Shown here: positions 6,733 to 61,812 of the stretch, piece by piece | How positions within the stretch are numbered: the first letter of the stretch is position 1 | Layout of the letters: each line of letters starts with the position of its first letter | From: Yuukianura sp. NJ FZ-2021 | Lineage: Eukaryota | DNA length: 64,000 bases | Assembly (NCBI GenBank): GCA_046563655.1 | Contig: CM102290.1 | Location: 5,456,001-5,520,000 of the forward strand | Direction: 5' to 3' | Notes under the pieces: model-generated | The model's database searches: none | What the model was told of the DNA's origin: nothing | What the model saw: the letters and a program-made list of their open reading frames with translations, nothing else | Made by a program: the position numbers and the translations under genes

Positions 6733-9700
6733 ATGGACTACAGCTCCTACATCAACCACCACCATCAGACCGGTGGATTCGATCACCAGACCTTCCCCGC
6801 CAGTCTGGGGGTGGGGGTCACGGGGTCAATGGACTCTGCACTCTCCAACTACGCTGACCTCTCTGCATGTGCTCAGGTAACAAACTTCCAACAGCACCAA
6901 CTTTCTCAAAATTTCAAAAAAAAAAAGTTTCAAAATTGTTCAAAACGACGCTGTGCTCTTGGGTTTTTGGAAAGTTCGAAAGTGAAAGTGCTTAAATTGA
7001 TCAAATGGTCAGAAACTAATGAAATTATAACTGATCAAGTCATCAGAAACTGAACTGATCAAATGATCAGAAACTAATTGACTGATCATAGGACCAGAAA
7101 CTGATGAACTGGTCAAATGATCAGAAACTGATAAACTTATCAGAAGCTGATTACCGGATCAAATAATCAGATGCTGATTAACTGATCGGAGGATCAGAAA
7201 CTGATGAACTGATCAAATTATCAGAAGTTGATAAACTGGTCAAATGATCAGAAAATGAGGAGATAATCAAAAACAGATGAGCTAATCAGCAACTGATTGA
7301 CTGATTGATTGCAGGATCAGAAACTGATGAACTGGTGAAATTATCAGAAGTTGAGATCTGATCAAGTGATCGGAAGCTGATCAAGTGATCAGAAACTGAT
7401 GGACTGATCGGAAGGTGTGTTCTATATTGCGGTTGTGTGTTTTAGGTCGGAGGTTACCGTTATGGGGGTGGTAATGTGCGGAGTTGTTACTCTAATTCTG
7501 CGATGGGTCCAGCCTCTCAGTGTGGTGGAATGCGACATGACCAAAGACACCAAACTTTCCCCACCATGAACCTCCAAGGTAAATTTTGTTAAGCAATTTT
7601 TTTTTTTGGAAAAAAAAAACTTGAAATTTTGTTCAATTTTTTTTTGAAACGAGGGAGATAGATATATCGGAGTTATGGGTCTAAACCAAATCTACGAGTC
7701 CGCTAAACTAAATTTAATATAAAAAAACTTTTGATTTTGTGTACGGGTTTTAAAGTTATAAAATTTGAATGTGCTTCTGGAAAATGAAAATCTGGGATGT
7801 TTATGAAAGTTTAACAGTTCCACAAAACCACAAAACCTTTTAAGCTCTGTAGTGGTTGTATCAAAATTTCAGAAATTTAAGATTCTAAGACTTTCTCCTA
7901 ACTTCAACTTTGGATTTTGAAATCAACGTGAATAGAATTTCCAAAATGAAAATCGAAATTTTAAATGAACGTTTCGGCAGAATTTCCAAAGTCAACTAAA
8001 ACTTTAAAAAATGGAACTTTAATAAGAATTCTCTCCATCACAATTTCCAAAGAGAGAGTTAAATTTTGAAAACATGATAAGTGCAAAAAGAATTTTCAAA
8101 TTGAAAATAAAATTTCAAAAATAACCAAATTTCAAAACGCCACTGTTTTGGTAAGAATTGATTGTTTTTGGAGAAAGTGGAGTTGTGTTGAGAAGAAAGT
8201 GTTGTCTGGGGTAAGTTGATAAATGGAACTTCGACTTGTCCATGATCAGAACCAGACGGTCGGAAGACAATTCCGACGTCAACGGAGTCATGGAAACCCA
8301 TTTGTCACGACCCACGAGAGAAATGGCCCCACCGAAACACGAGCCCCACCCAACAGGACCCACCCAACAACATTCCAAACATGGAAGCCTTCTCCACTGT
8401 CAAACTCCTCAATTCAAAATTCCAACTAAAATTTACTACTTCAAAGTCAATGATTGGACAGTTGGAGTTTGTTTGAACTTAAAAATTTCAAATTTGTTTA
8501 GTATCCACTTCCCCGCTTATTTTTTTAATTTTTTTGAAATTCAAAATTTCAGATTCTCCTCACCACCTTTTTGCTGCAGCGAGTTTAAGTTACAAAATGT
8601 ACGGAGGGGATGCAAGTTCTGTGTTGACGGAGAAGCGAAAACAACGACGCATCAGAACCACTTTCACTTCTGCTCAACTCAAAGAACTAGAACGAGCTTT
8701 CCAGGTTAATTAACATACTAATTACATGAATTAACGAAGTAATTAAGTAATTACTTAAGACAATTACATGAACTACTCAATAATTCGTTGTTAAAGGAGA
8801 CGCACTACCCAGACATTTATACTCGAGAGGAAATCGCACTCAAAATTGATCTCACCGAAGCACGAGTTCAGGTGAAAACAAAAACAAAAATTTCATTTTT
8901 ACTTTCACTTTTTCTTAAGTTTTTTTTTTTGTGGTGAAAAATCATTTTGACGCGTTTGATTTTTTGTTCAAAATCGGTGATTTGTGTACAAAATCGCTGA
9001 AAATCGGGACGAATTGGATTAGAACATGCGTGAAACTGAGTGTTAGCGTCGCTCTTGACTTGAAAGTTGCAGCAAAAGTTGTTTCTTGTCCCAGCGGAAC
9101 AATTTAAGACCGTCGCTTGGTCGAGTGTTGGTCCAAACTGAAGTACATGTCCAAGGGCCTCCTTCCAGAAAGTGTCCAGGCACCCTTAAGGGTCCCATGA
9201 CAGAACAAAGGGCCCCCCTTGCCTCTGACTGTCCTAATTTCCCAGTTGATTAACAGTTGATCGCTTCCGCCTCTGTTGGGCTCTCGAGGCCACGTGACTG
9301 TCCGTCCGCTCACGCGCTCGCTCCTTGTGCATATCCAATTCCACTTGGCACTTTCACTTTCCAGTGCTAATCAACACATCATCTGACCTGAAACTTCTCA
9401 AAAAAGAGAGATTAGAGTGAAATAAGCGGGAAAACGTATTTTGGTAAGATTCAAATGCTAAAGGAGATGGTTTGGGAGGGAGTGTGGCTGGAAGTGGATG
9501 CGGCTGTGAAGCACTTAGGAAAATTAAAAGTGTCTGTGCGGTCGTCTATCTCTGTCTCCCCACAAACTTCTCAGAACCACACAAACTTCCACTTCTACTT
9601 CTCTAATTGGTCCTTCTTCTTCCGAAGAACAGCCCCACCCCCGCCCCCTCCTCCCCCCTCCACAAACTCTCATTATCCACATACAAAAGTTACACAACGC

Positions 9701-11479
9701 CTAAACTTTTTCATTTTCAAAACTCAGAATGACTCCTACGGATGAGAAATGGTAGTAATTTGGAAAAGAATATCCGAAAAAGTCTAGGTTTAGACAATCC
9801 CCCATTTTAGAAAAGTATATCCGACAGTATTCTAGGTTTAGACAACCTCCTGATTTAGAATATTCCAGGTTTAGGCCCCCCCCCCATTTTAGAAAACATT
9901 TGGACCGAGAATATCCGAAAGTATTCTAGGTTTAGACAACCCCCCCCCCCTTGCGATGTTAGAAAAAAAAGTCGTCTATGAGAATTGTCTCAATCGTTGG
10001 AAGATTTGTGGGGGGGGGGGGTGATTGTTCTGAAGGGGGTGGGGGGATTCATGATTTTCTAATTTGCGAGAGTTGTTGTGCATTGTGTCCCTTAGAAGAG
10101 GGGGTACCTTAACGAGACTTGACTTTTGAACATGTGGTCATAGAAGGGGGCCCTTGAAAAAGAAGACATCAATATATCGTCGACCTGTCAATCGGCTCAT
10201 GACGTGCTCCTGGAACCGTTACGATACGGTAGTGGACTTGTAGTTGCAGAACGACCAAGGGACCACTCAAGGGTCCTTCAAGGGTCCTTCGTCATGTGGA
10301 CTTTTGTGTTGCCAAAGGGGTGATGCTCATTTGGGAGACGTGATTAGACAGGGGGAAGCCATGTGGCAGGACTTTCTCTGCTTTCTCCAGTCCTTCTCTC
10401 TGCGTCTCTTTTGATGAAGTGTCAATGTTTGGAGAGGGGGTGAATTAGCACTGTGGTCTTCCTGGAGACTGGAAACTGAATCGCTGGAAGCGCTGGAATC
10501 GCTGGAAGCGCGGGAGGGTGTAAATTTGGCAAGTCAACAGTGACAGGTGGCAATAAAAGTTGGTTGTAGTGGAGGGAAATGCGCTGGAACGGAGTAATCC
10601 CATGTATAAATATCACTTCCATTAAATATTCAAACCAACGACCAAACAACTTTCTCCAAACAAGAACTTCCAAGTCCCCCCTTCGGAAGGGGGGCCTTGA
10701 AGGGAGCAGAAGACAAAGAGCAGGGCCACCTCATGTCACATTTGACACAAACAACCATAAATCCTCCCTCCATTGACTCAAAGGCTACAATGCATGGCTA
10801 CTCAACATTTAACATCATTTACAACTACACTTACAAGGGCTCCCTTTGTCCACACTACTTTCACTTTTTTACACGCTCCGTAATTTTTACACGCTTACAC
10901 GTAAATACGTGTAAAACACGTGTACGGTACATGCAAAACACGGACCCTCCATACCTCGTTCCGCAACGTTTCCTCAAAACCCTACCCGCCCGTGCCCGCC
11001 CTGAATTAAATGTTAATAAAATTTGTGTTGTATTTAATTAAATTCGGCATTAAATTTATTTATTTTATATATATTATTTATTATTTATTATTATATATTA
11101 AAATTTAATAGAAATGTCAACTTACAAGTGTTTTGGAATGTTCTAGGTGTGGTTCCAGAACCGGCGTGCCAAATTCCGGAAGCAAGAGCGTCTGTCTCAG
11201 CAGAAGCAGAGTTCGAGCAGCAGCAGTTCAAGTGGCTCCACCGGCTCACAAGCTACAAATGGCAACAACCCCGGTGGGTCCGGCCCCACCGGATCCGAAA
11301 ATGTGACGAACGGGAAGCCACCGGAAGTGAATGGAAAGGCAGTAACTAAAGAAAGCTCTAAGCGATCTGACATGGCCAAGTCTCCAGCGATTCCCTCCAG
11401 CCACTTCCCGCTCCTCCTCACACCCTCCCCCTCCCCCATCTCATCCAACTACTCGCTCGCAGCAAAGGCTCTCTTCTGA
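6733..11479 (+). CDS. Phox2: Paired-class homeobox protein Phox2 (PHDP orthologue)
   Basis: Exons 6733-6876, 7446-7578, 8553 (or 8580)-8704, 8797-8871, 11147-11479; all GT-AG and frame-consistent. N-terminus MDYSSYIN...[16 protein letters not shown] resembles Phox2. Homeodomain [65 protein letters not shown]. Confidence 0.96.
6995..7410. repeat. Degenerate ACTGATCAAATGATCAGAA tandem array in Phox2 intron 1
   Basis: Many TGATCA-centred units visible. Confidence 0.85.
9760..9950. repeat. Degenerate repeat TATTCTAGGTTTAGACAAC in Phox2 intron 4
   Basis: Four related units with C-runs. Confidence 0.7.
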
Positions 11480-11663
11480 AACCAACTTCCATCCACCATC
11501 TTTATTTTTTAATTTACTAACTACTAAGTCAATTAACCACTCCTAGTCACTCTACCATTTAAATTTAATCTTAAACCCGTGTTCTAAACTAACAAAAACA
11601 ATTTTCAAAAAATTTAAACGACAATTTCCAAGAAAAAAAAACAAAAATTATTTTTTGTGTAGT

Positions 11664-12322
11664 TTAAGTTCTCTGATGTTCCAGAAACTGAAAATTCAAA
11701 AACCGAACCCCGTCGCGTTCTTCCTCCAGCATTTCAATTTCTTCGTCGTCAATGGCCATCGGAGCACCAAAACACTGTCGCTTAGCAACACTTGTCGTCT
11801 GGTCTTCCTCTTCCATGTCACAAATTTTCCGTTTTCGATAGGAAATCCTGGTGGAGCCTTCTGCCGGCGGGTAGAAGAGACACAAACCAGCTTTTGGAGA
11901 ATTTGTTTTTGGTGGGTCCACTGGTGGTTCACAAGGTTCCTTGACAACGAAAAGTTAATTTTCCTTAGCAGGTTGGGTACTACCTCGCTTGTTTACAAAA
12001 AAAATAGTACCAATCCAAAAAATTGGTACCAATTTGTATGCAAAATTTAAAAAAATTAGCTGTATTAGACTACGATTCCCCGAAATCAAAAGATACGTTT
12101 TTCCTCTCTTTTTTTTCGAGACAATCGAGAAAAATTGAGATAACATGAGGTATTACCCAACCTGTTAAAGAAAATTAAAAGTAAACAAACCTTGGGTGGC
12201 TCAGGTGTTGGTGGAGCAATTTCCGATCCGGAAGGTGGCACAGTCGATGCTGGTGGGACGGTGGATGGTGGCACGGTAACCTCGTGACCTCTTTCCTTAG
12301 CAGCCATGGCACGCGTCCTCAT
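11664..12322 (-). CDS. Orphan ~135-aa Pro-rich/acidic protein with NLS-like motifs; two exons separated by a MITE-derived intron
   Basis: Exon 1 12322-12191 (accATG MRTRAMAAK...PTPEPPK|gtttgt); exon 2 11939-11664 (ttttcgttgtcaag|EPCEPPVDPPK...YRKRKICDMEEED...AKRQCF...TAA). In frame whether the MITE is spliced or removed with one TSD copy. Minus-strand AATAAA at 11506-11501. No recognisable homology. Confidence 0.55.
11932..12194. mobile_element. CAAGG...CCTTG MITE (P/hAT-like non-autonomous) inserted in the orphan ORF
   Basis: Termini CAAGGTT/AACCTTG, subterminal CAGGTTGGGTA...TACCCAACCTG; 9-bp flanking duplication GGTGGTTCA/GGTGGCTCA. Closely similar to copies at 41652, 47159 and 49846. Confidence 0.93.
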
Positions 12323-13034
12323 GGTAACAACAAAATTTACTACCTTCCGAGACGGAATATGACAATGGACTAATTGGCTTTTTGTTGGATTTTGAATTTT
12401 GGACTAATTTTTTGTCCATAGTTGTTGATTACTCGATTTTACATAAAAATTTAAAAGTTTGAAAAAACGTTTTAGAGTGAATGAAATCCGAGGATTTCAT
12501 TTTGTTAATGTTGATCCATAATCCTTTGTTGGATTAATCCAGCATTCTTCCATCAAATCCATTGATTGGAAAATGGGGCTAAAACAATGAAATGTTTGAA
12601 TGATAACAAATTAAGAAGCTTAAAAACATCAATACACGATGCATCACAGTTTAAAACAGAAACCTAAACTTAAAAATTTCAATTGCAGGTTACTTTAGAA
12701 TTTCAAATTCTGAAAAACGTTAGAATTACGTAAATTGTTGTGTCAGTGGGTCACTAGAACGAACTTTGATGCTAAACTACGTTGGCTAGGTTAGTAATTG
12801 CTTCATCAGAATTCAAATTTACAGGTTCAAACCATGACTAATGCCAAAATTAAAATTCCTGCCAAAATTCAAAAACATAAAACTCAACCGGTAAATCCAA
12901 ACGACACATAAATGCACAAAGCAAAGGAAAGTTTAAAATTATTGACCTAGGATTTCCTAAAACGCAGGATTTCGTGAGACCTAGATCAACTTGAAAGTAC
13001 ATTTAGGAAAGGTCAAGGGTCAAGGTCACAATTA

Positions 13035-13040
13035 TTTATT
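13035..13040 (-). terminator. Probable polyadenylation signal of ovo/svb
   Basis: AATAAA on the minus strand ~500 nt downstream of the stop codon. Confidence 0.4.
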
Positions 13041-13204
13041 ATTTGATTTCATTATTTGAATTAACATAAAGTTCCGTCTCTACCAGAATGAAGATCGACA
13101 AACGCATTGGATTCCTAGGGGGTATATGTACATAATACGCAACAATACAAATCGTCAGTCCCGTGCTTTCAGCATAACCGTACTTGTCCCAAAACGTATA
13201 TAAA

Positions 13205-13470
13205 AGAAAACACTCAGTGTTTTCGCAAAACACCGAGTGTTAAACACAGTGTTTTTCGAAACAGAATGTCAAACACACTGTTTCCAGAAAACCGTGCGTT
13301 TAACACACTGTTTCCAGAAACCGTGCGTTTAACAGTGTTTCCAGAAAACCGTGCGTTTAACACACTGTTTCCAGAAACTGAGTGTTAAACACAGTGTTTT
13401 TAGAAACTTAGTGTTAAACACAGTGTTTTTTAGAAACGGAGTGTTTTTCGAAAAGACGGAGTGTTAAACA
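13205..13470. repeat. ~31-bp tandem repeat (AAACACAGTGTTT core) in the ovo 3' UTR
   Basis: About 8 units with quasi-palindromic cores. Confidence 0.88.
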
Positions 13471-13537
13471 CCTACTTGTGATTGTATGAATTAAGAGTGA
13501 TAGTCTTAAAAACAGTTGCTTATGATTGTTAATTGAT

Positions 13538-21877
<8,340 letters not shown>

Positions 21878-22399
21878 CGTGGAGCACTTAAGTCCTCCAA
21901 GGAGGATCAACAGTCACTGGATTCCCAGGGCGCTGGAAGTCCCTGTAGCACGTGGTACACTGTCTAATGTTGCCACAACTATGTTGCCACAAGTATGTTG
22001 CCACAAATGTGTTGGTCCTTGGTGTGAAAGTACTTGTGATCCGAGTGGACTCCAAGGATGAACTGACGGGAACAGGTAGGATTCATTGCCAAGGCTAAAC
22101 AGTTAGGCTCTCCTCATCACCTCACCCTCTTCTCAAAACTACCCCACACTTAAGAGCGCCAAAAAAAAAACATCACGTCGGCCTCCCTGTCCCGGCAGAA
22201 ACAATTTGGCCACGTCCAAAAATTCAATAAAAAGTCAAATTCAAATTCACGTCGCGGATAAATTCAGCCAATATTTCCTTACTGTGCATACTAATGCCAG
22301 AAATCGACGGAGATTTTTAACTTTTGAACTCATTTTCATACTGCCTTAATTATAACGAACATAAATAAAAAAACAATCAAATAATTTATAATAAAACCT

Positions 22400-23974: not shown

Positions 23975-24193
23975 CAAGGTTCGCAAAAAAAAAACTTTTT
24001 CTATACCAGGTTGTCCAGTAACTCGAGGTTTTAAACTTTGTTTGAAAGTAGGAAATCTGCCTTTCTGTGGTAATTTTTTGCATGTATGGAAATGGGATTG
24101 TTGCAGAAAGTTTGAAATAAATTTTTTGGAAACCCTGAGTTATTGGACAACCTATTGTAAATTAGTTGTAGATTGGTTGCTATAGCAACCTTG
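23975..24193. mobile_element. CAAGG-family MITE (CAGGTTGTCC subterminal type)
   Basis: CAAGGTT...AACCTTG; perfect 8-bp TSD GTTTTAGT. Confidence 0.92.
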
Positions 24194-35942: not shown

Positions 35943-36229
35943 CAACGTTGTTTAAATCGAAATTTTGTTTGTTTTTTCTTAATAGGTTATATCATTACTC
36001 ATTTTTTCAAATTTTCAAATTCTTTGAACCGTACATGTGAAGCGGCTCCATTACTTTTCAATTCGAAATCAAAACCATGAGAAAGGGAAAACTAAAAAAT
36101 TTCAAAAAATTTTCGTGAAAACAAACAAAATTATTCCAAAAGTTGTATTTTTTTTTGTATTTAAAAAAAATCGTAGTTATTGCATAACCTGTTATTTCAT
36201 TTGCATAAATGGGCGCTATAGCAACCTTG
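35943..36229. mobile_element. CAAGG-family MITE
   Basis: CAACGTTG...CAACCTTG; perfect 8-bp TSD ATAGAAAC. Confidence 0.85.
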
Positions 36230-41651: not shown

Positions 41652-41896
41652 CAAGGTTTGTTGAATTTTATTTTCTTTAACAGGTTGGGTAATATCTCAT
41701 GCTTTTTCGATTTTGCAAAAAAAGAAGTGTCTTTTCGTTTCATGGTATCGTAGTCATAACAATATAGCCGAATTTTTTAATTTTTGCATACAAATTGGTA
41801 CTAAAATTGGTACCAATTTTTTTTCGTTTTTCTGTATATTTTGCGCGGTAGTACCTAACCTGTTACAGAAAAGTTTTTTGTTGTCAGGGAACCTTG
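41652..41896. mobile_element. CAAGG-family MITE (inverted relative to the 11932 copy)
   Basis: Perfect 8-bp TSD CTCTTTAG. Confidence 0.93.
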
Positions 41897-43903: not shown

Positions 43904-46757
43904 ATGGAGATGATGATGAACGTCAAGTCTGAACCTACGCAAAATATGGATGTGCCCAAGGACTGTGCAGGGTGCGGCAAAAAAATTACAGACAGGTTCG
44001 TTTTTCAGGATTTATTTTGTGTTTTATCTGCTTTGCACTTTTGGCGCGAAAATTTCCCGTTTTCTGGAGTTTCTCCAACGCTTGCCATCAAGGAGATTGA
44101 CAATTCCGCGGCAGAAATGATTTTATTTTTGCCGGCAGAAATGATTTCCTTTTTGCCGGCAGAAATGACTTCCTTTTTGCCGGCAGAAATGACTACCTTT
44201 TTGCCGGCAGAAATGATTTCCTTTTTGCCGGCAGAAATGACTTGCAATATTCTGTTTTGCGTAGGTTTCTGTTGAAGAGTCTTGAGCGATACTGGCACGA
44301 GTCCTGTCTGCGATGTTCCTGTTGCCAGTGCTGCTTGGCTGAAATCGGGAACACGCTGTACACTAAGGCATCACTAATTCTCTGCAAACGGGACTACTTA
44401 AGACTCTTCGGAAGTACTGGGTACTGCGCAGCATGTTGCAAAGTACTGCCAATACTTTTAAAAAATTTAAACAAAAGTTGAATCTGTTCAGCAACACTTT
44501 TTTAAATTATTAATTTGGGAACTATTACTCTTTCCAGGTGATTCCGAGTTTCGAAATGGTGAGTTCCAAAATTTTAGTCTTAAAATTTTGAAATTTTAGT
44601 TTTCAAGTTTTGAAATTTTTTGAAATTTAGATGAAATATGAAAACGATTTTGAATAATCGTTGCAGGTGATGAGAGCGCGGTCAAATATTTACCATTTGG
44701 AGTGCTTTGCTTGTCAGCAGTGCAGTCATCGGTAAGTGTACATTTTCCAAAATTTCGAAATTTCAACTTTTTCTTTTTGAGAGCAACTCAATCAAGGTGG
44801 ATAAAAAAGAAATATTTTCCTTTAACAGGTTAGGTAATAACTCGAGCTTTAAGTTTTTTGCCAAAAATTTTCAAAAGTGAATTTACCTAATTTCAACCGC
44901 GGTTGGTATGGTAAACGGAATTAAAAATTCGGAGAGATGGCTTTTAAATTGGCAAATTCAAAGTAGAAAAAAGTAAAAGGTAGAAAAAATTGTTTGACTC
45001 AAGATTTTTCGAAAAGAAGACTTACTGCCTAACCTGTTAAAGGAAAAGTATTTCGTTGCTATAGCAACCTTGACTCTAGTTTTAAGTTGAAACTAAGTTA
45101 ACAAAGTGCCTAACGTAATGTGAAGTGTGGTTAATGCGTGGAGTGTGTTGGTTAGGAAGTGGCTGTCGCACCCTCTGGTCCCTCGAGGGTGAAAGTCAAC
45201 TGGAGGGAAATTAAAATTGAAAATTTGATTGTTATCAGATAATGAATCACGTGCGACGAAGGGAACGCACATCTCTGCCCAACACTCGTCGTGGGATTAG
45301 AGTCCCACCCACATTTAATAACTTCGGCCCCACCAAAACCAACAATAAGCCCCACCTAACACAACTTCTGCTTCGGATTTGAATCTCATAAATTTATTCC
45401 CGCTCTGTATTTCGGCCCAACCTAAATCATTTCTTTTGACACAAAGCTTCCAATTGACTCTGGTCACTTCCAACCCTCAACTTTCACAAAAAAAAATCAA
45501 CTTTTTTTTAAAAAGTAGCCCCCTCAACTTTTTTTTTGACTTTTTCTAAATCACTTTCTTGCGTGGGAGACACACGTTACGGAGGCAATTATGCACGCAA
45601 ACGGAACAGAAAAAAATCGGTGAAAGTACAAGTGTGGACGGAACATTCAAAAAAACGAACAAAAAATTGACTTTTGGAAAACACATTTTTCCGTTCCGCC
45701 CAAAACACAATGTAACTTCTCACCTTCAAACTTTTTTTTTACTTTTTACGCGGTCTTTTCAAAAAGTAGTTGAAAAGGTCAACTTTTTTAAAATTGAATT
45801 TTAAAAATTATGAGAAAAAAAAGCTAAAAATTAATGAATTCCAGTTGAGCAGTTTTTATGTGAACGGAGAGTGTAAGCCTTGACACACTTCTGGTTGTTC
45901 GATGATCGCTGGATGTGAAGGGTCCCCCTGGCAAAGGGGACCCTTAACAACGAAAGGGGGGCCCTTTGAAACGGAATAAAGTGGCGAACTGTGATTCCAT
46001 TGATACACAATCATAAATCAGTTAAGTCTCATTCATGGCCAAATCGAGCACTCAAGCGTCCCTCAACCATTTCAAGTCACGTCAGTTCTTTGAGGCACCG
46101 AACTGACAAAATCAAATTGAAATTTAGCCGCTTTCTCCCCACTAAATTTTCCCGCCAAAATCAAAAACATGTCCAGACATGACATGATTTTGACCAAGGT
46201 TCCTTGACAACCGAATTGTATTTCCTACATCAGGTTGTCCAATAACTCGGTGTATTCAAAACTCTTGCTTCGAACAGTTTTTCACTACATTTTTTGTTGG
46301 TATTCCTCAATTTTTTCAAGCTAAATTGCAAGGGAATATAAAAGAAGTGGACAAAAGTCAAAAATTTTCATAGAAGTGGAGGTGAAGTTTAACCGTTTTC
46401 AGTTTTCAAAATTTTTGCACAAACTAGAAAAACTCGAGTTATTGGACAACCTGGTGTAGAAAACGAAACATTTTCTTTGTTTACGAACCTTGATTTTGAC
46501 CTTGGCATGTTTTTAACTCTTAGATTCTGCATCGGAGAGAACTTTGCAATTTTTAACAACCGAATTCTGTGTGAACAAGACTACCAAAACTTAATTCTGA
46601 GCAGCGACGAAACGACGACGTACAAACAGCAGCAACAACATCATCATCGCCCGGAAGCCGTAAGTTTTAAGAACCTTGCATGTTCAACTATAGTTTTCAA
46701 AAGTTAAAATTGGGTTAAAAAGTTAAAACATTTTTAACATTTTAGTTTCTGAGGTGA
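43904..46757 (+). CDS. Bx: LIM-domain-only protein, Beadex/LMO1-3 type (paralogue A)
   Basis: Exons 43899 (ATG 43904)-43995, 44265-44442, 44538-44558 (21 nt), 44667-44731, 46524-46659, and a tentative last exon 46746-46757 (FLR*). CAGCGKKITDRFLLKSLERYWHESCLRCSCC...CKRDYLRLFGSTGYCAACCKVIPSFEMVMRARSNIYHLECFACQQCSHRFCIGE...ILCEQDY. First and last exons uncertain. Confidence 0.93.
44108..44242. repeat. 24-bp tandem repeat GCCGGCAGAAATGATTTCCTTTTT in an LMO-A intron
   Basis: 5-6 near-identical units. Confidence 0.93.
44793..45072. mobile_element. CAAGG-family MITE in LMO-A intron
   Basis: CAAGGTGG...CAACCTTG, subterminal TTTAACAGGTTAGG/CCTAACCTGTTAAA; TSD decayed. Confidence 0.8.
46195..46492. 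mobile_element. CAAGG-family MITE ending 31 nt before an LMO-A exon
   Basis: Perfect 8-bp TSD ATTTTGAC; subterminal CAGGTTGTCCAATAACTCG/CGAGTTATTGGACAACCTG. Confidence 0.93.
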
Positions 46758-47158
46758 GGTCATTAAGTTTTGCGATTTGATCGAAAGAAATTAAACTGGG
46801 TCAGAAGTTGAGTTTTTTTGGAACAGAGTTTTTATGAGGCTATTTAAAAATCCAGTTTTTAGAAAAAGAAAGTTTTTGTTTGAACACAGGCTACAAATGG
46901 GGAAAGTTGTGAGTAATTCCTTTGATTTCAGATCACGCAAAACTGAGCTTAAGCATTTGGGGGGAGGAAGGAGGTGCGGAGCATGAGGGGGTGGTGGGGG
47001 GTGTTCCTTTGACACCGTGACGTGCCGTTTCCACTCCTTTTTCAAGCGGCAAAACATTCAAATTCAAAATTCATCAAGGTTTCTCCCGCCACGACTCAAG
47101 CTATTCGGAAGTCAAGGCCGCCTGACCCCTGAACCCCCGAACCCCTTAAACCATCAAC

Positions 47159-47412
47159 CAAGGTTCCTTGACAACGAAATTATTTTCTTTAACAGGTTTG
47201 GTACTACCTCACTTGTTGACAAAAAAACGAAGAAAAACAAAAAATTAGTACAAATCCACAAAATTGGTACGAATTCGTATGCAAAATTGAAAAAAATTGG
47301 CTGTAATGTCATGACTACGATGCCCCAAGTGAAGAGAAACTCTTTTGTTCAAACTCGTAAAAATATGAGGTATTATTACCTGTTAAAGAAAATCAAAAGT
47401 CAACAAACCTTG
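47159..47412. mobile_element. CAAGG-family MITE
   Basis: Colinear with the 11932 copy; 8-bp flanks CCATCAAC/CCCCCAAC. Confidence 0.9.
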
Positions 47413-49845
47413 CCCCCAACCCCCTCGATGGGGGTGAGAACTTGTGTTGTTACTCGTTTTTAGATTTTTAGATTAATGTCAATTTATTGTTAACTTTTGA
47501 GGAAACGATTCTTCAAAAATTAGATTTTAGACTTCCAAAAAAATTTGGAAAAAAGAAGAAATTATCCAAAATACTCACACTTCCATCTCGTTTACTCTCG
47601 TTTTTATGGAATATACAAAGTACTCTGATGTATAAAAAGAAAAACGTACTTATAAAGACTTGGAGAAATAAAAAAAAGCGCCAGTGAGATTCGAACTCGC
47701 AACTTCCTTTTCATCTTCATTTTGAGTCCGTTTGGAAGTAGTGGCATAAGGCTTGGTCAGTATTCACATTTCTCATGAATTCAAATTGGAATGAAGGGGA
47801 AATATTTTTCAAAAAAAGTGGTACTATCAAAATTTTATTTTTCAAAAAAAAGTTGAAAATGCGGGAGAAAAGTGAGATTCATGGAGAAAGCTGGAGACTG
47901 GACTTCACCCCTCATCATCTTTGTATTCAGAGGAGTGACAAGGAAAACACAAGTTTCCATCTTACTCCAAACGGAATTGGATTATGAATATTTGAACAAA
48001 ACTGACCCGCCAAAAAAAAAATTCAAAATTCAAACAGCTTTTCAAATGTGACTCTCAATGGAAATGGATCACCCTAAACCTCTGACCGCCATGATTCCAC
48101 ATTCTGCATGAGCCAAATTACAAAATTTCTTCGTTTTTGTCAAAAAAGTTTACTTTTACAAAAATTTAGTTTTAAAATTAGGTTTGTTAGGTTAATGTTT
48201 GCTTATGCAGCACTGCAGCTCTTTTTCCAGGGTGCGACTAAATTTGGGAAAAGCGGAAAGTCTGAATTCTTTTGTGTTGAAATTTACAACCCCAATGGGG
48301 AAAGGTTGAAAGATATTCGTCAGATCGGGATTCAAAAAGGACTCGCACGGACCATAAATACTCATTTCCAGGGACACAGAAGAGGAACAACCTAACGCAA
48401 GTTAGGCTAACAACCTAACCATGGAACAACCTTGTTCAAGCCCAGTTGTCACCCGCCAAAATACGAACAAGAAGAACACGGTTTCCAGGCACCAGACGTC
48501 GCAAAGAACCCAGAAGACAGGTAAAACACTCTGTCACTTCAGAATTTGAAAGTTGTGGTGCCATTAAGAATAGAAAAGGAGTTTGGCACGTGGAGCAAGG
48601 TAGCCTAGTGGTCGGTGATTCGGGGATTGAAAAATGGGACGGAGGCACTAATCCCACCGAAGGGAATTTTTTTTTGAAATAAGCGGGATGAGGATTATGA
48701 TTAAGGGGCTATTGGACGTGTCACGGGCCCTTGGGCTGCGGATTCCAAAAGTCGGCTGGACTTGATTGAGTTGAGGGATGATGATGATTGGGGGAGTGAG
48801 GGGGGCCCTGCGAAGGGCCAGATAAAGTGCCCCCAGTTTCCTTTATGGGTTTCTAATAAGAGGAGAAATGACCAAGGCAGTTAGATAAGAGCAGAGACGG
48901 CGGAAACTGCGGCCAAAACGAAAACCAGAGTCGCTGGGCCTTATTTTTCTTCCTATTTTGTTGGAAGGGGCCGTCGATCATAAAAGAAGAAGCGATTCCT
49001 TGTGGGGCTTCTTATCTCTGACATTCTATCATTTCCCTAATAATTCACATCAACTTTCTCTCTCCGGCCACGGGCCAACTTCCTTTCTTCCTGGCCTTAA
49101 GTACCCCCCGCCCTAACTCCAAGTACCCCCCAACTTTGGACAAAGTACCCGGCCAGGGTCCATCCCAAGTTCAAACGGGAAATTAAGTTGACTTTTGGGC
49201 CAATTCAAAACTTTTGAACATTTGAGCCAAATTTGAGGGAAATCCTAACTTTCCTTTTGACTTTCCTTTTGGCCCATAACTGGAAATGGGGGCTTCGTAA
49301 TATTGTTATTGCATATTCCAGGATTTCCTTTATCTTTTACTCTCTCTCAAGACTACGTTTTATTGTCTACTTTTTTCAAAAAATAAAGTTTTTGAACAAC
49401 AAAAATAAAATGTTGAACTTTTTTGAGCTGATTCACAGTGACATGAGTAGGATGAAAGTTTTGTGGAATTAAATTGCCAAAAGTAATTAGGTTTGTGGAG
49501 TAGAGTGGATTTGGTGAAGTTTGTCCAGTGGGGTGGTGGGGGGTTCGGAAGAAGAGGAGTGGGGTGGGGGTGTGATAGGATCTAAATTGAATGGTGGTGG
49601 AGGGGGACTGAGAGTTGCTTGCGGTTATAATATAATAATGTGGCTCTGAATAAGCTTATCTGATCATTCCATGCAGCCAAAATCCACCCGAGCTTCTTTT
49701 GAGCACCCAGATTAACTTCCATAATTTTATCCAAATGAATAGCTACTCGTCACTCACTCTCCCAAATAACACAACTTAATCCAAACACTTTCACTAACCT
49801 AACACAAACAAAGTTCCCAAAAGCCTAACCTTAGTCAGTCGTAAT

Positions 49846-50114
49846 CAAGGTTCCTTTACAACTAAAAGTTAGTTTTTTAACAGGTTGGGTACTACACGTC
49901 GCTTGTTGACAAAAAAACGAAAACAAGAAAATAGTACCAATTTAGTACAATCCGAAAAATTGGTACTTAATTCGAATGCAAAATTAAAAAAAAAAATGGC
50001 TGTATTGTTATGACTACGATGCACAGAAATGAAAGGATACTTTTTCTTGCAAAATCAAAAAAACATGAGGTATTACCCAACCTGTTAAAGAAAATCACAA
50101 TTCAAAAAACCTTG
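49846..50114. mobile_element. CAAGG-family MITE
   Basis: Colinear with the 11932 copy; 8-bp TSD GTCGTAAT/GTTGTAAT. Confidence 0.92.
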
Positions 50115-61300: not shown

Positions 61301-61812
61301 GAAGGTTGGTTGATTTAATTTTCTTTAGCAGGTTGCGTAGTAAATAACTCCTATTTTTTTTAAATTTTACAACAAAGTTCAGCTGCAAGCCAGGGTATAA
61401 CCATAACATTATAGATGATTTTTTTAGATATTTTACATAGGAAATTGCAAGGTTCCTTAATCCTCGATTTGTATTTTTTACAACAGGTTTTCCAGTAACT
61501 CTGGGTTTTCCGTCTGACTTCAACCAATTTTTGGCGCCATTTAGCACCAATCCGATTTATGTTACACACAAAAATTGACATAGGAAGGAAGTGTTGCTAT
61601 TTTTAAACAAAAAAACTTCGAGTTACTGGACAACCTGGTATAGGAAAAAACATTTTCTTTGTTTATGAACCTTGGTACCAAAATTTTTTTATTTTTTCAA
61701 ATTTGTACTTTATGCACACCGTTTTTTTTTGTTATTCTCATTTTTTTTTGGTAAACAACTGAGGTATTACGCAACCTGTTAAAGAATACTAAATGGTTGT
61801 CAAGGAACCTTG
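61301..61812. mobile_element. CAAGG-family MITE with a second family member nested at 61448-61674
   Basis: Outer element flanked by GTTTCGGTG on both sides (9 bp); inner element CAAGGTTCC...GAACCTTG with no clear TSD. Confidence 0.82.

What the first reader, a model, noticed from the sequence alone, without database searches (positions are those of the whole stretch)
11664..12322. A MITE that appears to function as a spliceosomal intron (Introner-like event)
Seen in sequence: a CAAGG-family MITE (11932-12194) splits a minus-strand ORF. Its own termini supply both splice sites: CAAG|GTTTGT (donor, 12190) and TTAAC...ttttcgttgtcAAG|GAACCTTG (acceptor, 11940). Splicing the 251-nt intron leaves 4+8 nt of element plus the 9-nt duplication, i.e. 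21 nt, joining two open frames into a 135-aa protein (PEPP-KEPCEPP-VDPP). Most sister copies have 8-bp TSDs (23975, 35943, 41652, 46195, 49846), which would leave 20 nt and frameshift; this copy is in the rarer 9-bp class (also 61301). AAG acceptors and GTT-type donors are used by conserved genes in this window (CycD, Phox2, LMO-A, LMO-B). Established: Introner DNA transposons create introns by carrying or co-opting splice sites. Inference: this abundant family could generate introns genome-wide, with survival depending on TSD length.
Basis: partly seen in the sequence, partly recalled or inferred. Interest (0 to 1): 0.82.

Follow-up and report, generated by a model that had tools for sequence, protein, structure and literature searches.

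The report
Transposon inside small gene, possibly spliced
A small mobile DNA element sits inside what looks like a small protein-coding gene of an animal, and its own ends could let the cell cut it out of the RNA as an intron, but no RNA data were available to show that this happens.

Summary
A 263-bp inverted-repeat element (11932-12194) with a 9-bp target-site duplication (1 mismatch) splits a minus-strand ORF. Removing the element and one duplication copy restores one frame of 128 codons. GT at 12190 and AG at 11940 give a 251-nt intron that retains 21 nt (135 codons).

The ORF looks coding. It is a GC island like neighbouring exons, its codon-usage score beats 70 of 71 control ORFs, and its 3-periodicity matches known exons. 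It has no detectable homologue, but a control search shows the databases lack this lineage.

AAG acceptors (3 of 11) and GTT donors (2 of 12) are used by conserved genes here. The element carries about 5% private substitutions and 4 private indels, yet the ORF is intact (neutral expectation roughly 0.003-0.14), which hints at tolerance.

Against: there is no RNA evidence. The donor scores below all 12 known donors, and a stronger competing donor would shift the frame. The element ends fold into a strong hairpin. The family's usual 8-bp duplication would leave 20 nt, so the family is not built as an Introner.

Verdict: a plausible but unproven single case of a hAT-like MITE acting as an intron (about 0.4). 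The genome-wide Introner claim is untested.

The parts
11932..12194 (.). Non-autonomous inverted-repeat element (MITE), 263 bp, 32% GC. End A (CAAGGTTCCTTGAC...) lies at 11932 and end B (CAAGGTTTGTTTAC...) at 12194, so the minus-strand ORF reads B to A.
11923..11931 (.). Target-site duplication, left copy (GGTGGTTCA)
   Evidence: 1 mismatch in 9. The mismatch is GAG versus GAA (both Glu) in the ORF frame.
12195..12203 (.). Target-site duplication, right copy (GGTGGCTCA)
12191..12322 (-). Candidate exon 1: ATG at 12322 and a second ATG in a gccATGg context at 12307. 44 codons, proline-rich, 59% GC.
11940..12190 (-). Candidate intron, 251 nt, lying wholly inside the element. Donor AAG|GTTTGT at 12190, acceptor TTTTCGTTGTCAAG|G at 11940, TTAAC about 15 nt upstream of the acceptor.
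   Evidence: Not observed in RNA.
11664..11939 (-). Candidate exon 2: 91 codons plus TAA stop, 47% GC, with a basic RKRK patch followed by an acidic tail.
11505..11573 (-). Poly(A)-signal-like hexamers (ATTAAA at 11568, AATAAA at 11512 and 11505), 96-160 nt downstream of the stop
41652..41896 (.). Core sister copy, 8-bp duplication CTCTTTAG
47159..47412 (.). Core sister copy, 8-bp duplication with 2 mismatches
49846..50114 (.). Core sister copy, 8-bp duplication with 1 mismatch
61301..61812 (.). Diverged copy carrying a nested sister-family element (61448-61674). Its duplication is 9 bp, or 10 bp if the first base was lost.
44793..45072 (.). Diverged copy with no clean duplication
46195..46492 (.). 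Sister-family copy (inner repeat CAGGTTGTCCAATAAC), 8-bp duplication ATTTTGAC
23975..24193 (.). Sister-family copy, 8-bp duplication GTTTTAGT
35943..36229 (.). Degenerate related copy, 8-bp duplication ATAGAAAC

Best explanation
A hAT-like miniature inverted-repeat element inserted into the proline-rich, probably disordered part of a small single-exon orphan gene. The gene had 128 codons before insertion and lies tail-to-tail with Phox2, about 1.2 kb downstream of the Ovo stop. The gene reads the element from end B to end A. Its pre-mRNA therefore presents AAG|GTTTGT four bases inside the element, and TTTTCGTTGTCAAG|G eight bases before its far end. The most likely outcome is that the U2-type spliceosome removes these 251 nt. 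The mRNA then keeps 4+8 element bases plus the extra 9-bp duplication, which is 21 nt or seven added residues (KEPCEPP), and the protein stays in frame at 135 aa. Shown: the insertion, the duplication, the restored frame, the coding-like character of the ORF, and the use of such splice-site types by conserved genes here. Inferred: that the gene is expressed and that this junction is used. Both splice-like motifs are family-consensus features, not changes private to this copy. This would therefore be a lucky by-product of the element's ends and an unusual 9-bp duplication, not an adapted Introner.
For: (1) Excision restores one frame and the proposed splice keeps it. Of 125 GT-AG pairs spanning the element, 11 keep the frame to the native stop. 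The proposed pair ranks 1st of those 11 and 5th of all 125. (2) The ORF looks coding. It is a GC island of 47-59% in a 25-35% background, like the Phox2 and Ovo exons. Its codon-usage log-odds is +0.10 bit/codon, the best of six frames, and only 1 of 71 control ORFs of 90 codons or more reaches that value. The method picked the true frame in 16 of 17 left-out known exon pieces. Its training-free 3-periodicity is 0.173 chi2/codon (p=0.0007), against a known-exon median of 0.178 and a control median of 0.06, and 4 of 71 controls reach it. (3) AAG acceptors occur at 3 of 11 hand-placed introns and GTT donors at 2 of 12, all in conserved genes. The acceptor scores 4.7 bits, against a leave-one-out median of 4.8 for known acceptors. 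(4) The four core copies form a star-like set: 59 private changes against 5 shared. This copy has 11 private substitutions in 225 columns (4.9%) and 4 private indels. Under neutral decay of that size the 135-codon ORF would stay intact with probability about 0.003-0.14. (5) The one duplication mismatch is synonymous (GAG/GAA) in the ORF frame. (6) Poly(A)-like hexamers lie 96-160 nt after the stop. (7) There is precedent: Aureococcus Introners carry both splice sites and add 4+8 = 12 nt (PMC9860276, passages).
Against: The junction has not been observed in RNA. The ORF has no homologue in any search, so selection cannot be measured by comparison. Exon 1 alone has a negative codon score (-0.13), although that is still the best of its six frames. 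The donor scores 3.2 bits, below all 12 known donors under leave-one-out (3.9-13.6), and 10.8% of all GTs in the window score as high. A stronger donor-like site (CAG|GTTGGG at 12161, 6.9 bits) paired with the same acceptor would shift the frame. This scoring matrix rests on only 11-12 hand-placed sites. The element ends pair into a long hairpin (-88 kcal/mol, z = -7.3) that buries both proposed splice sites. The age argument assumes that private changes arose after insertion, and it borrows an indel rate from AT-rich element DNA. The case was picked because the frames were open, which is an ascertainment bias. The first canonical poly(A) hexamer after the Phox2 stop on the plus strand is at 12174, so the region may also be Phox2 3'UTR.
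Confidence: 0.4

Rival explanations
1. The ORF is or was a real gene, but the insertion disrupted it. The element is not productively spliced, and the locus is a young pseudogene, a null or polymorphic allele captured by the assembly, or a producer of a truncated product. Read-through hits a stop at 12086-12088, 35 codons into the element.
For: This is the default fate of transposon insertions in coding sequence. The donor is weak and a stronger out-of-frame donor competes with it. The strong terminal hairpin may hide the splice sites. If the indel rate in the GC-rich ORF is a quarter of that in the element, or the insertion is younger (d = 0.02), an intact ORF is not unusual (P = 0.14-0.45). 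hAT elements normally make 8-bp duplications, so the 9-bp state needs no selective explanation; a second copy shows 9 or 10 bp in non-coding DNA.
Against: The ORF is intact on both sides despite about 5% private divergence and 4 private indels in the element. The only difference between the duplication copies is synonymous. The rare duplication length is the one that keeps the frame with the best available splice pair.
Confidence: 0.3
2. There is no gene. The open frames are a by-product of a GC-rich, CCA-rich non-coding stretch, for example Phox2 3'UTR or a regulatory island, and the element simply sits in non-coding DNA. The frame match is a 1-in-3 coincidence.
For: No homologue was found in 1.84 billion representative proteins or any other search. 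Several frames are open across this stretch: the antisense frame has 166 codons open, and a second sense frame has 98 aa over exon 2. Exon 1 is low-complexity with a negative codon score. The window has 49 ORFs of 110 aa or more, most of them surely non-coding. The nearest canonical Phox2 poly(A) hexamer lies beyond this region.
Against: The codon-usage score exceeds 70 of 71 control ORFs and is best in the proposed frame. The 3-periodicity is exon-like. GC-rich control ORFs (0.50-0.56 GC) score negative. A long open antisense partner frame is what real coding sequence typically shows (established knowledge). The absence of homologues carries little weight: the control search with the Phox2 last exon found only the 20-residue homeodomain part (18-19% coverage), so neither this organism nor close relatives are in the database.
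Confidence: 0.2
3. The gene is real and the element is removed or bypassed, but not as proposed. One option is a different donor/acceptor pair. Another is that exon 1 is untranslated leader and translation starts at an internal Met of exon 2 (about 50 residues).
For: Ten other GT-AG pairs also keep the frame. Exon 2 carries most of the coding signal (+0.14 against -0.13 for exon 1). Ds1 is reported to be alternatively spliced from exon sequences (title seen in the reference list of PMC3260210).
Against: The alternative frame-preserving pairs score much lower (4.3 or less, against 7.9). The frame continuity of exon 1 and exon 2 after excision would then be a coincidence.
Confidence: 0.1

Closest known systems
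Aureococcus Introners (DNA-transposon Introners that carry both splice sites)
   Same: A short non-autonomous DNA element with a target-site duplication. Both splice sites lie just inside the element ends. After splicing, a few element bases plus the duplication stay in the mRNA and add residues; there it is 4 + 8 = 12 nt, or four residues (PMC9860276, passages; preprint version).
   Different: In that case the arithmetic is frame-neutral for the family's normal duplication, and hundreds of copies are introns. Here the normal 8-bp duplication would leave 20 nt and shift the frame, and only this 9-bp copy fits. Only one candidate intron copy is known, there is no RNA evidence, and the host is an animal.
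Maize Ds/Ds1 (hAT-family non-autonomous elements) spliced out of exons
   Same: A hAT-type non-autonomous element inserted in an exon and removed from the message by the host spliceosome, using sites in or near its termini. This is a by-product, not an adaptation. [quoted passage not shown] The mechanistic details are recalled; the papers themselves were not held.
   Different: Those cases are in plants, are experimentally shown, and are usually leaky mutant alleles. The present case is in an animal, is unverified, and appears older (about 5% divergence).
Fritillaria borealis MITE-derived introns
   Same: An animal genome in which MITE-like elements with inverted repeats and duplications at exon-intron borders form species-specific introns (PMC11282704, passages).
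   Different: Those introns are mostly non-canonical (AG-AC, AG-AT) and need a modified spliceosome. Here the proposed borders are canonical GT-AG, and conserved genes in the window use ordinary GT-AG introns.
Micromonas pusilla Introner elements
   Same: MITE-like DNA transposons that become introns on insertion (PMC11282704, passages).
   Different: Those have a 3-nt duplication, carry one splice site and co-opt the other from the duplication, and leave mRNA length unchanged. Here both sites are internal to the element and 21 nt are added.

Membership tests
hAT-superfamily non-autonomous element (MITE) | Terminal inverted repeats | tested here: met
   The two ends share CAAGGTT plus the TTTCTTTAACAGGTTGGGTA core about 25-30 nt in. 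The RNA/DNA hairpin has z = -7.3.
hAT-superfamily non-autonomous element (MITE) | 8-bp target-site duplication (8 nt for hAT: PMC8721813, passages) | tested here: inconclusive
   The family meets it: 6 of 10 elements have 8 bp. This copy has 9 bp (1 mismatch), one other has 9 or 10 bp, and two have none recognisable.
hAT-superfamily non-autonomous element (MITE) | Terminal motif of YARNG type and nTnnnnAn target preference (both motifs recalled, from no call) | tested here: met
   CAAGG fits YARNG. Among five of the six 8-bp duplications (35943's ATAGAAAC was not counted when this tally was made), T is at position 2 in 4 of 5 and A at position 7 in 4 of 5, read.
hAT-superfamily non-autonomous element (MITE) | Small, with no coding capacity, and multiple dispersed copies | tested here: met
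   Elements are 245-298 bp, with 10 in 64 kb. ORFs inside the element have no Pfam family above cut-off.
hAT-superfamily non-autonomous element (MITE) | A related autonomous partner encoding a hAT transposase | not testable with these tools
   No genome is held for this window.
Introner (sensu Worden / Huff / Gozashti) | Many similar copies that are introns of unrelated genes | not testable with these tools
   There is no genome or annotation. In the window, only 1 of 10 copies lies in a candidate coding sequence.
Introner (sensu Worden / Huff / Gozashti) | Insertion plus splicing leaves the reading frame intact as a property of the family | tested here: not met
   The same consensus sites with the usual 8-bp duplication leave 4+8+8 = 20 nt. 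Only the 9-bp copy gives 21 nt.
Introner (sensu Worden / Huff / Gozashti) | Removal from mRNA shown by transcripts | not testable with these tools
   No RNA holder was listed.
U2-type GT-AG spliceosomal intron | GT...AG borders with exon-side AG|G context | tested here: met
   AAG|GTTTGT and CAAG|G. Seven of 9 donor positions match MAG|GTRAGT (consensus recalled).
U2-type GT-AG spliceosomal intron | Site strength within the range used by this genome | tested here: inconclusive
   The acceptor (4.7) matches the median known site. The donor (3.2) falls below all 12 known donors under leave-one-out. The matrix was built from only 11-12 hand-placed sites.
U2-type GT-AG spliceosomal intron | Pyrimidine tract and branch-point-like motif upstream of the AG | tested here: met
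   TTTTCGTTGTC precedes the AAG, with TTAAC about 15 nt and CTAAG about 25 nt upstream. The branch-point consensus is recalled.
U2-type GT-AG spliceosomal intron | Splice junction observed in RNA | not testable with these tools

The most novel reading that the evidence does not exclude
An abundant hAT-like MITE family of an animal carries a working 5' splice site in one end and a pyrimidine tract plus AAG acceptor in the other; the two ends are consistently asymmetric across copies. The family has therefore seeded new canonical GT-AG introns in coding sequence. The rare 9-bp duplication acts as the frame filter that decides which coding insertions survive. This would be an Introner-in-the-making, caught before it is optimised.
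Probability: 0.12. Interest if true: 0.7.

Novelty: new member of a known kind. Interest (0 to 1): 0.4.

Why it matters
Transposon-derived introns are the best-supported route to rapid intron gain. [quoted passage not shown] A canonical GT-AG intron made by an ordinary hAT-type MITE in an animal would show how a non-specialised element can create an intron by accident, and how duplication length filters which insertions survive. As it stands this is one unverified case in an orphan ORF, so its value is as a cheap, well-defined RT-PCR or RNA-seq target rather than as a result.

Tried and rejected
- RNA evidence: no RNA holder was listed for 11400-12700.
- Whole genome: none is held, so the genome-wide census of orientation and duplication length could not be done.
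- Homologues of the ORF: Pfam found none for either exon. The word-index search found none at near lengths or longer lengths. HMMER against 1.84 billion representatives gave 0 hits. The ESM Atlas gave no usable hit. In JGI metagenome contigs, 164 pattern matches included no relative. There is no paralogue in the window (tblastn).
- Control for those searches: the Phox2 last exon hit 5 proteins, but only over the homeodomain part. The negatives therefore say little.
- More family copies from metagenomes: a 20-nt inner-repeat core gave 4 loci (L001-L004). All were bare 20-27-nt chance matches without the CAAGG terminus.
- Phage collection search with the element: no match, and irrelevant in hindsight.
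- Earlier scan notes: nothing by place, by words or by sequence.
- Rfam over 11300-13600: 9 sub-threshold miRNA-like hits and none near its gathering score. The element hairpin scored 28 bits against 211 needed.
- ORF as an alternative last exon of Ovo: rejected. Ovo ends with its own fourth-finger exon and a stop near 13540, and the phase of its exon 3 donor does not fit the ORF frame at the AG at 12318, by reading.
- Private changes in this copy that improve splice signals: none seen. The donor core and the last 20 nt before the acceptor equal the family consensus.
- Literature string search for the termini: only unrelated primer matches.
- The Ds papers were not held.
- Supplementary tables of the Introner survey (family lists, animal taxa) were not consulted.

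Full report
**What is in the sequence**

On the minus strand an ATG at 12322 opens a frame that runs to 12191. There the termini of a 263-bp element begin (11932-12194). After the element the same strand is open from 11939 to a TAA at 11664-11666.

The element ends in CAAGG...CCTTG. Its flanks, GGTGGTTCA and GGTGGCTCA, match at 8 of 9 positions when compared at length 9. They show 5-7 mismatches at lengths 7, 8 or 10.

Removing the element and one flank copy gives a single 128-codon ORF reading ...PEPPVDPP.... Joining 12191 to 11939 gives 135 codons with KEPCEPP inserted. The proposed intron is 251 nt, starts GT and ends AG.

**The element family**

A blastn search and a terminal-motif scan find related elements across the window. 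There are four core copies (11932, 41652, 47159, 49846) that are 80-84% identical pairwise. There are two diverged copies (44793, and 61301 with a nested element). A sister family shares the CAAGGTT terminus but has a different inner repeat (23975, 46195, the nested 61448, and a degenerate 35943).

Duplication lengths for the 10 elements:

| Duplication | Elements | Count |
|---|---|---|
| 8 bp, 0 mismatches | 23975, 35943, 41652, 46195 | 4 |
| 8 bp, 1 mismatch | 49846 | 1 |
| 8 bp, 2 mismatches | 47159 | 1 |
| 9 bp | 11932 (1 mismatch); 61301 (9, or 10 if it starts at 61302) | 2 |
| None recognisable | 44793, nested 61448 | 2 |

An 8-bp duplication is the hAT hallmark (PMC8721813, passages). 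CAAGG fits the YARNG terminus that I recall for hAT elements. I therefore call this a hAT-like MITE. No transposase partner could be sought because no genome is held.

The two ends are consistently asymmetric in all core copies. End B reads CAAGGTTTGTTGA.... End A reads CAAGGTTCCTTGACAACGAAAA..., whose reverse complement is TTTTCGTTGTCAAG|GAACCTTG. The donor-like and acceptor-like motifs are thus family-consensus features. They are not changes private to this copy.

**Is the ORF a gene?**

No search found a relative:
- Pfam
- word-index searches at near and longer lengths
- HMMER against 1.84 billion representatives
- the ESM Atlas
- JGI metagenome contigs
- tblastn within the window

A control search shows this is uninformative. 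The last exon of the neighbouring Phox2 gene finds only five proteins, and only over its 20-residue homeodomain part (18-19% coverage). Neither this organism nor close relatives are in the database.

Internal evidence favours coding:
- The two ORF halves are 59% and 47% GC in a 25-35% GC background. That is the same contrast as the Phox2 and Ovo exons nearby.
- I trained a codon-usage model on 1,356 codons of Ovo, Phox2, cyclin D, ferritin and two LMO genes. It picks the true frame in 16 of 17 left-out pieces.
- The spliced ORF scores +0.10 bit/codon, the best of its six frames. Only 1 of 71 control ORFs of 90 codons or more outside known genes reaches that score.
- Exon 2 carries most of the signal (+0.14). 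Exon 1 is low-complexity and scores -0.13, though this is still the best of its six frames.
- A training-free test of nucleotide composition by codon position gives 0.173 chi2/codon (p = 0.0007). The median is 0.178 for known exons and 0.06 for controls, and 4 of 71 controls reach the ORF's value.
- Poly(A)-like hexamers follow the stop by 96-160 nt.

I put the chance that this is, or recently was, a coding gene at about 0.8.

Context: the Ovo gene upstream on the same strand ends with its own zinc-finger exon and a stop near 13540. The ORF is therefore not an Ovo exon. Phox2 on the other strand stops at 11479. Its first canonical poly(A) hexamer lies at 12174, inside the element, so antisense overlap with a Phox2 3'UTR is possible.

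**Are the splice sites credible?**

I placed introns in conserved genes by hand. I used Pfam hits and conserved motifs that I recognise (cyclin box, homeodomain, LIM, ferritin, Ovo fingers). These placements are inference.

- Of 11 acceptors, 5 are TAG, 3 CAG and 3 AAG (Phox2 homeobox, cyclin D, LMO-B).
- Of 12 donors, 4 are GTAAG, 1 GTAAA, 3 GTAC, 2 GTGA and 2 GTT (Phox2 GTTAAT, LMO-A GTTCGT).

A crude position matrix built from these sites gives the following:
- The element's acceptor scores 4.7 bits, equal to the leave-one-out median of known acceptors (4.8). That places it in the top 6.3% of all AGs.
- The donor scores 3.2 bits, below all 12 known donors (3.9-13.6). 10.8% of all GTs in the window score as high.
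- By U1 complementarity, 7 of 9 donor positions fit (consensus recalled).

Among 125 GT-AG pairs that span the element, 11 keep the frame to the native stop. The proposed pair is first of those 11 and fifth of all 125. A higher-scoring donor at 12161 (CAG|GTTGGG) paired with the same acceptor would shift the frame.

The transcript would also fold its element ends into a long hairpin (-88 kcal/mol, z = -7.3). This hairpin pairs the donor with the retained 3' end. That could bring the sites together or hide them.

**Has the gene survived the insertion?**

Among the four core copies, 59 substitutions are private to one copy and only 5 are shared two-and-two. The copies therefore look like a burst from one source. 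This copy has 11 private substitutions in 225 ungapped columns (4.9%) and 4 private indel events.

If the ORF had decayed neutrally by the same amount, it would keep its ATG and stay free of stops with probability 0.46. With the element's indel rate, or a half or a quarter of it, the whole ORF would be intact with probability 0.003, 0.04 or 0.14.

The single difference between the two duplication copies is a synonymous Glu codon change. The rare 9-bp duplication is also exactly what the best splice pair needs to stay in frame.

These points favour tolerance of the insertion, most simply through splicing. They rest on four copies, on a borrowed indel rate, and on a case chosen because its frames were open.

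**Comparison with known systems**

The proposed mechanism is not new in kind.
- Aureococcus Introners carry both splice sites and leave 4 element bases plus the 8-bp duplication in the mRNA, adding four residues (PMC9860276, passages; preprint).
- Micromonas Introners and Fritillaria MITE-derived introns are further examples (PMC11282704, passages).
- The closest analogue by element type is maize Ds/Ds1, a hAT-family element spliced out of exons. I saw only the titles of those papers, in the reference list of PMC3260210. The papers were not held.

The difference from true Introners is important. With this family's normal 8-bp duplication the same sites would leave 20 nt and break the frame. 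The family is therefore not built for neutral insertion into coding sequence, and only 1 of 10 copies here lies in a candidate coding sequence. The Introner-family reading fails that tested feature. The reading that it works like a Ds-type accidental intron remains open.

**Verdict**

| Reading | Confidence |
|---|---|
| Insertion in a probably real orphan gene, tolerated because the element is spliced out at 12190/11940 | about 0.4 |
| Disrupted or null allele | about 0.3 |
| No gene at all | about 0.2 |
| Another splice pattern or gene model | about 0.1 |

No RNA or comparative data could be obtained, so the claim remains a hypothesis that a single RT-PCR would settle. If true, it is a new member of a known kind. 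It would be mildly notable because the large survey found Introners in only two animal groups.

Noticed in passing
window 8705-8796 (+): The Phox2 homeobox carries a 92-nt intron between ...ELERAFQ and ETHYPD..., in addition to the usual one before VWFQNRR. It uses a GTT donor (CAG|GTTAAT) and an AAG acceptor. Its acceptor context TTCGTTGTTAAAG|GA resembles the element's TTCGTTGTCAAG|GA. blastn did not link this intron to the family, and no extra residues are present in the homeodomain, so this is probably coincidence or a shared acceptor taste.
   Followed up: partly
window 13215-13445: A tandem array of a 29-nt unit (7.8 copies, 79% matches) lies just downstream of the Ovo stop, presumably in its 3'UTR. 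It draws several sub-threshold miRNA-precursor-like Rfam hits.
   Followed up: no
window 21613-21913 (-): A 97-codon ORF has the highest codon-usage score of all 71 control ORFs (0.32 bit/codon) and strong 3-periodicity, but no Pfam family. It may be an unrecognised exon.
   Followed up: partly
window 61301-61812: A diverged family copy contains a nested sister-family element (61448-61674). This shows that the related families were active at overlapping times.
   Followed up: partly
window 43995-44262 (+): The first intron of LMO-A starts with a GTT donor (ACAG|GTTCGT). It is largely a tandem repeat that stays open in frame (AEMISFLP-like units).
   Followed up: no
window 12174 (+): The first canonical poly(A) hexamer downstream of the Phox2 stop (11479) lies inside the element. 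The insertion may therefore also have changed Phox2 3'-end formation.
   Followed up: no
window 46987-47463 (+): A 158-codon open frame runs straight through the sister copy 47159-47412. Elements of this family can be open in one frame by chance, which is a caution for ORF-based arguments.
   Followed up: no
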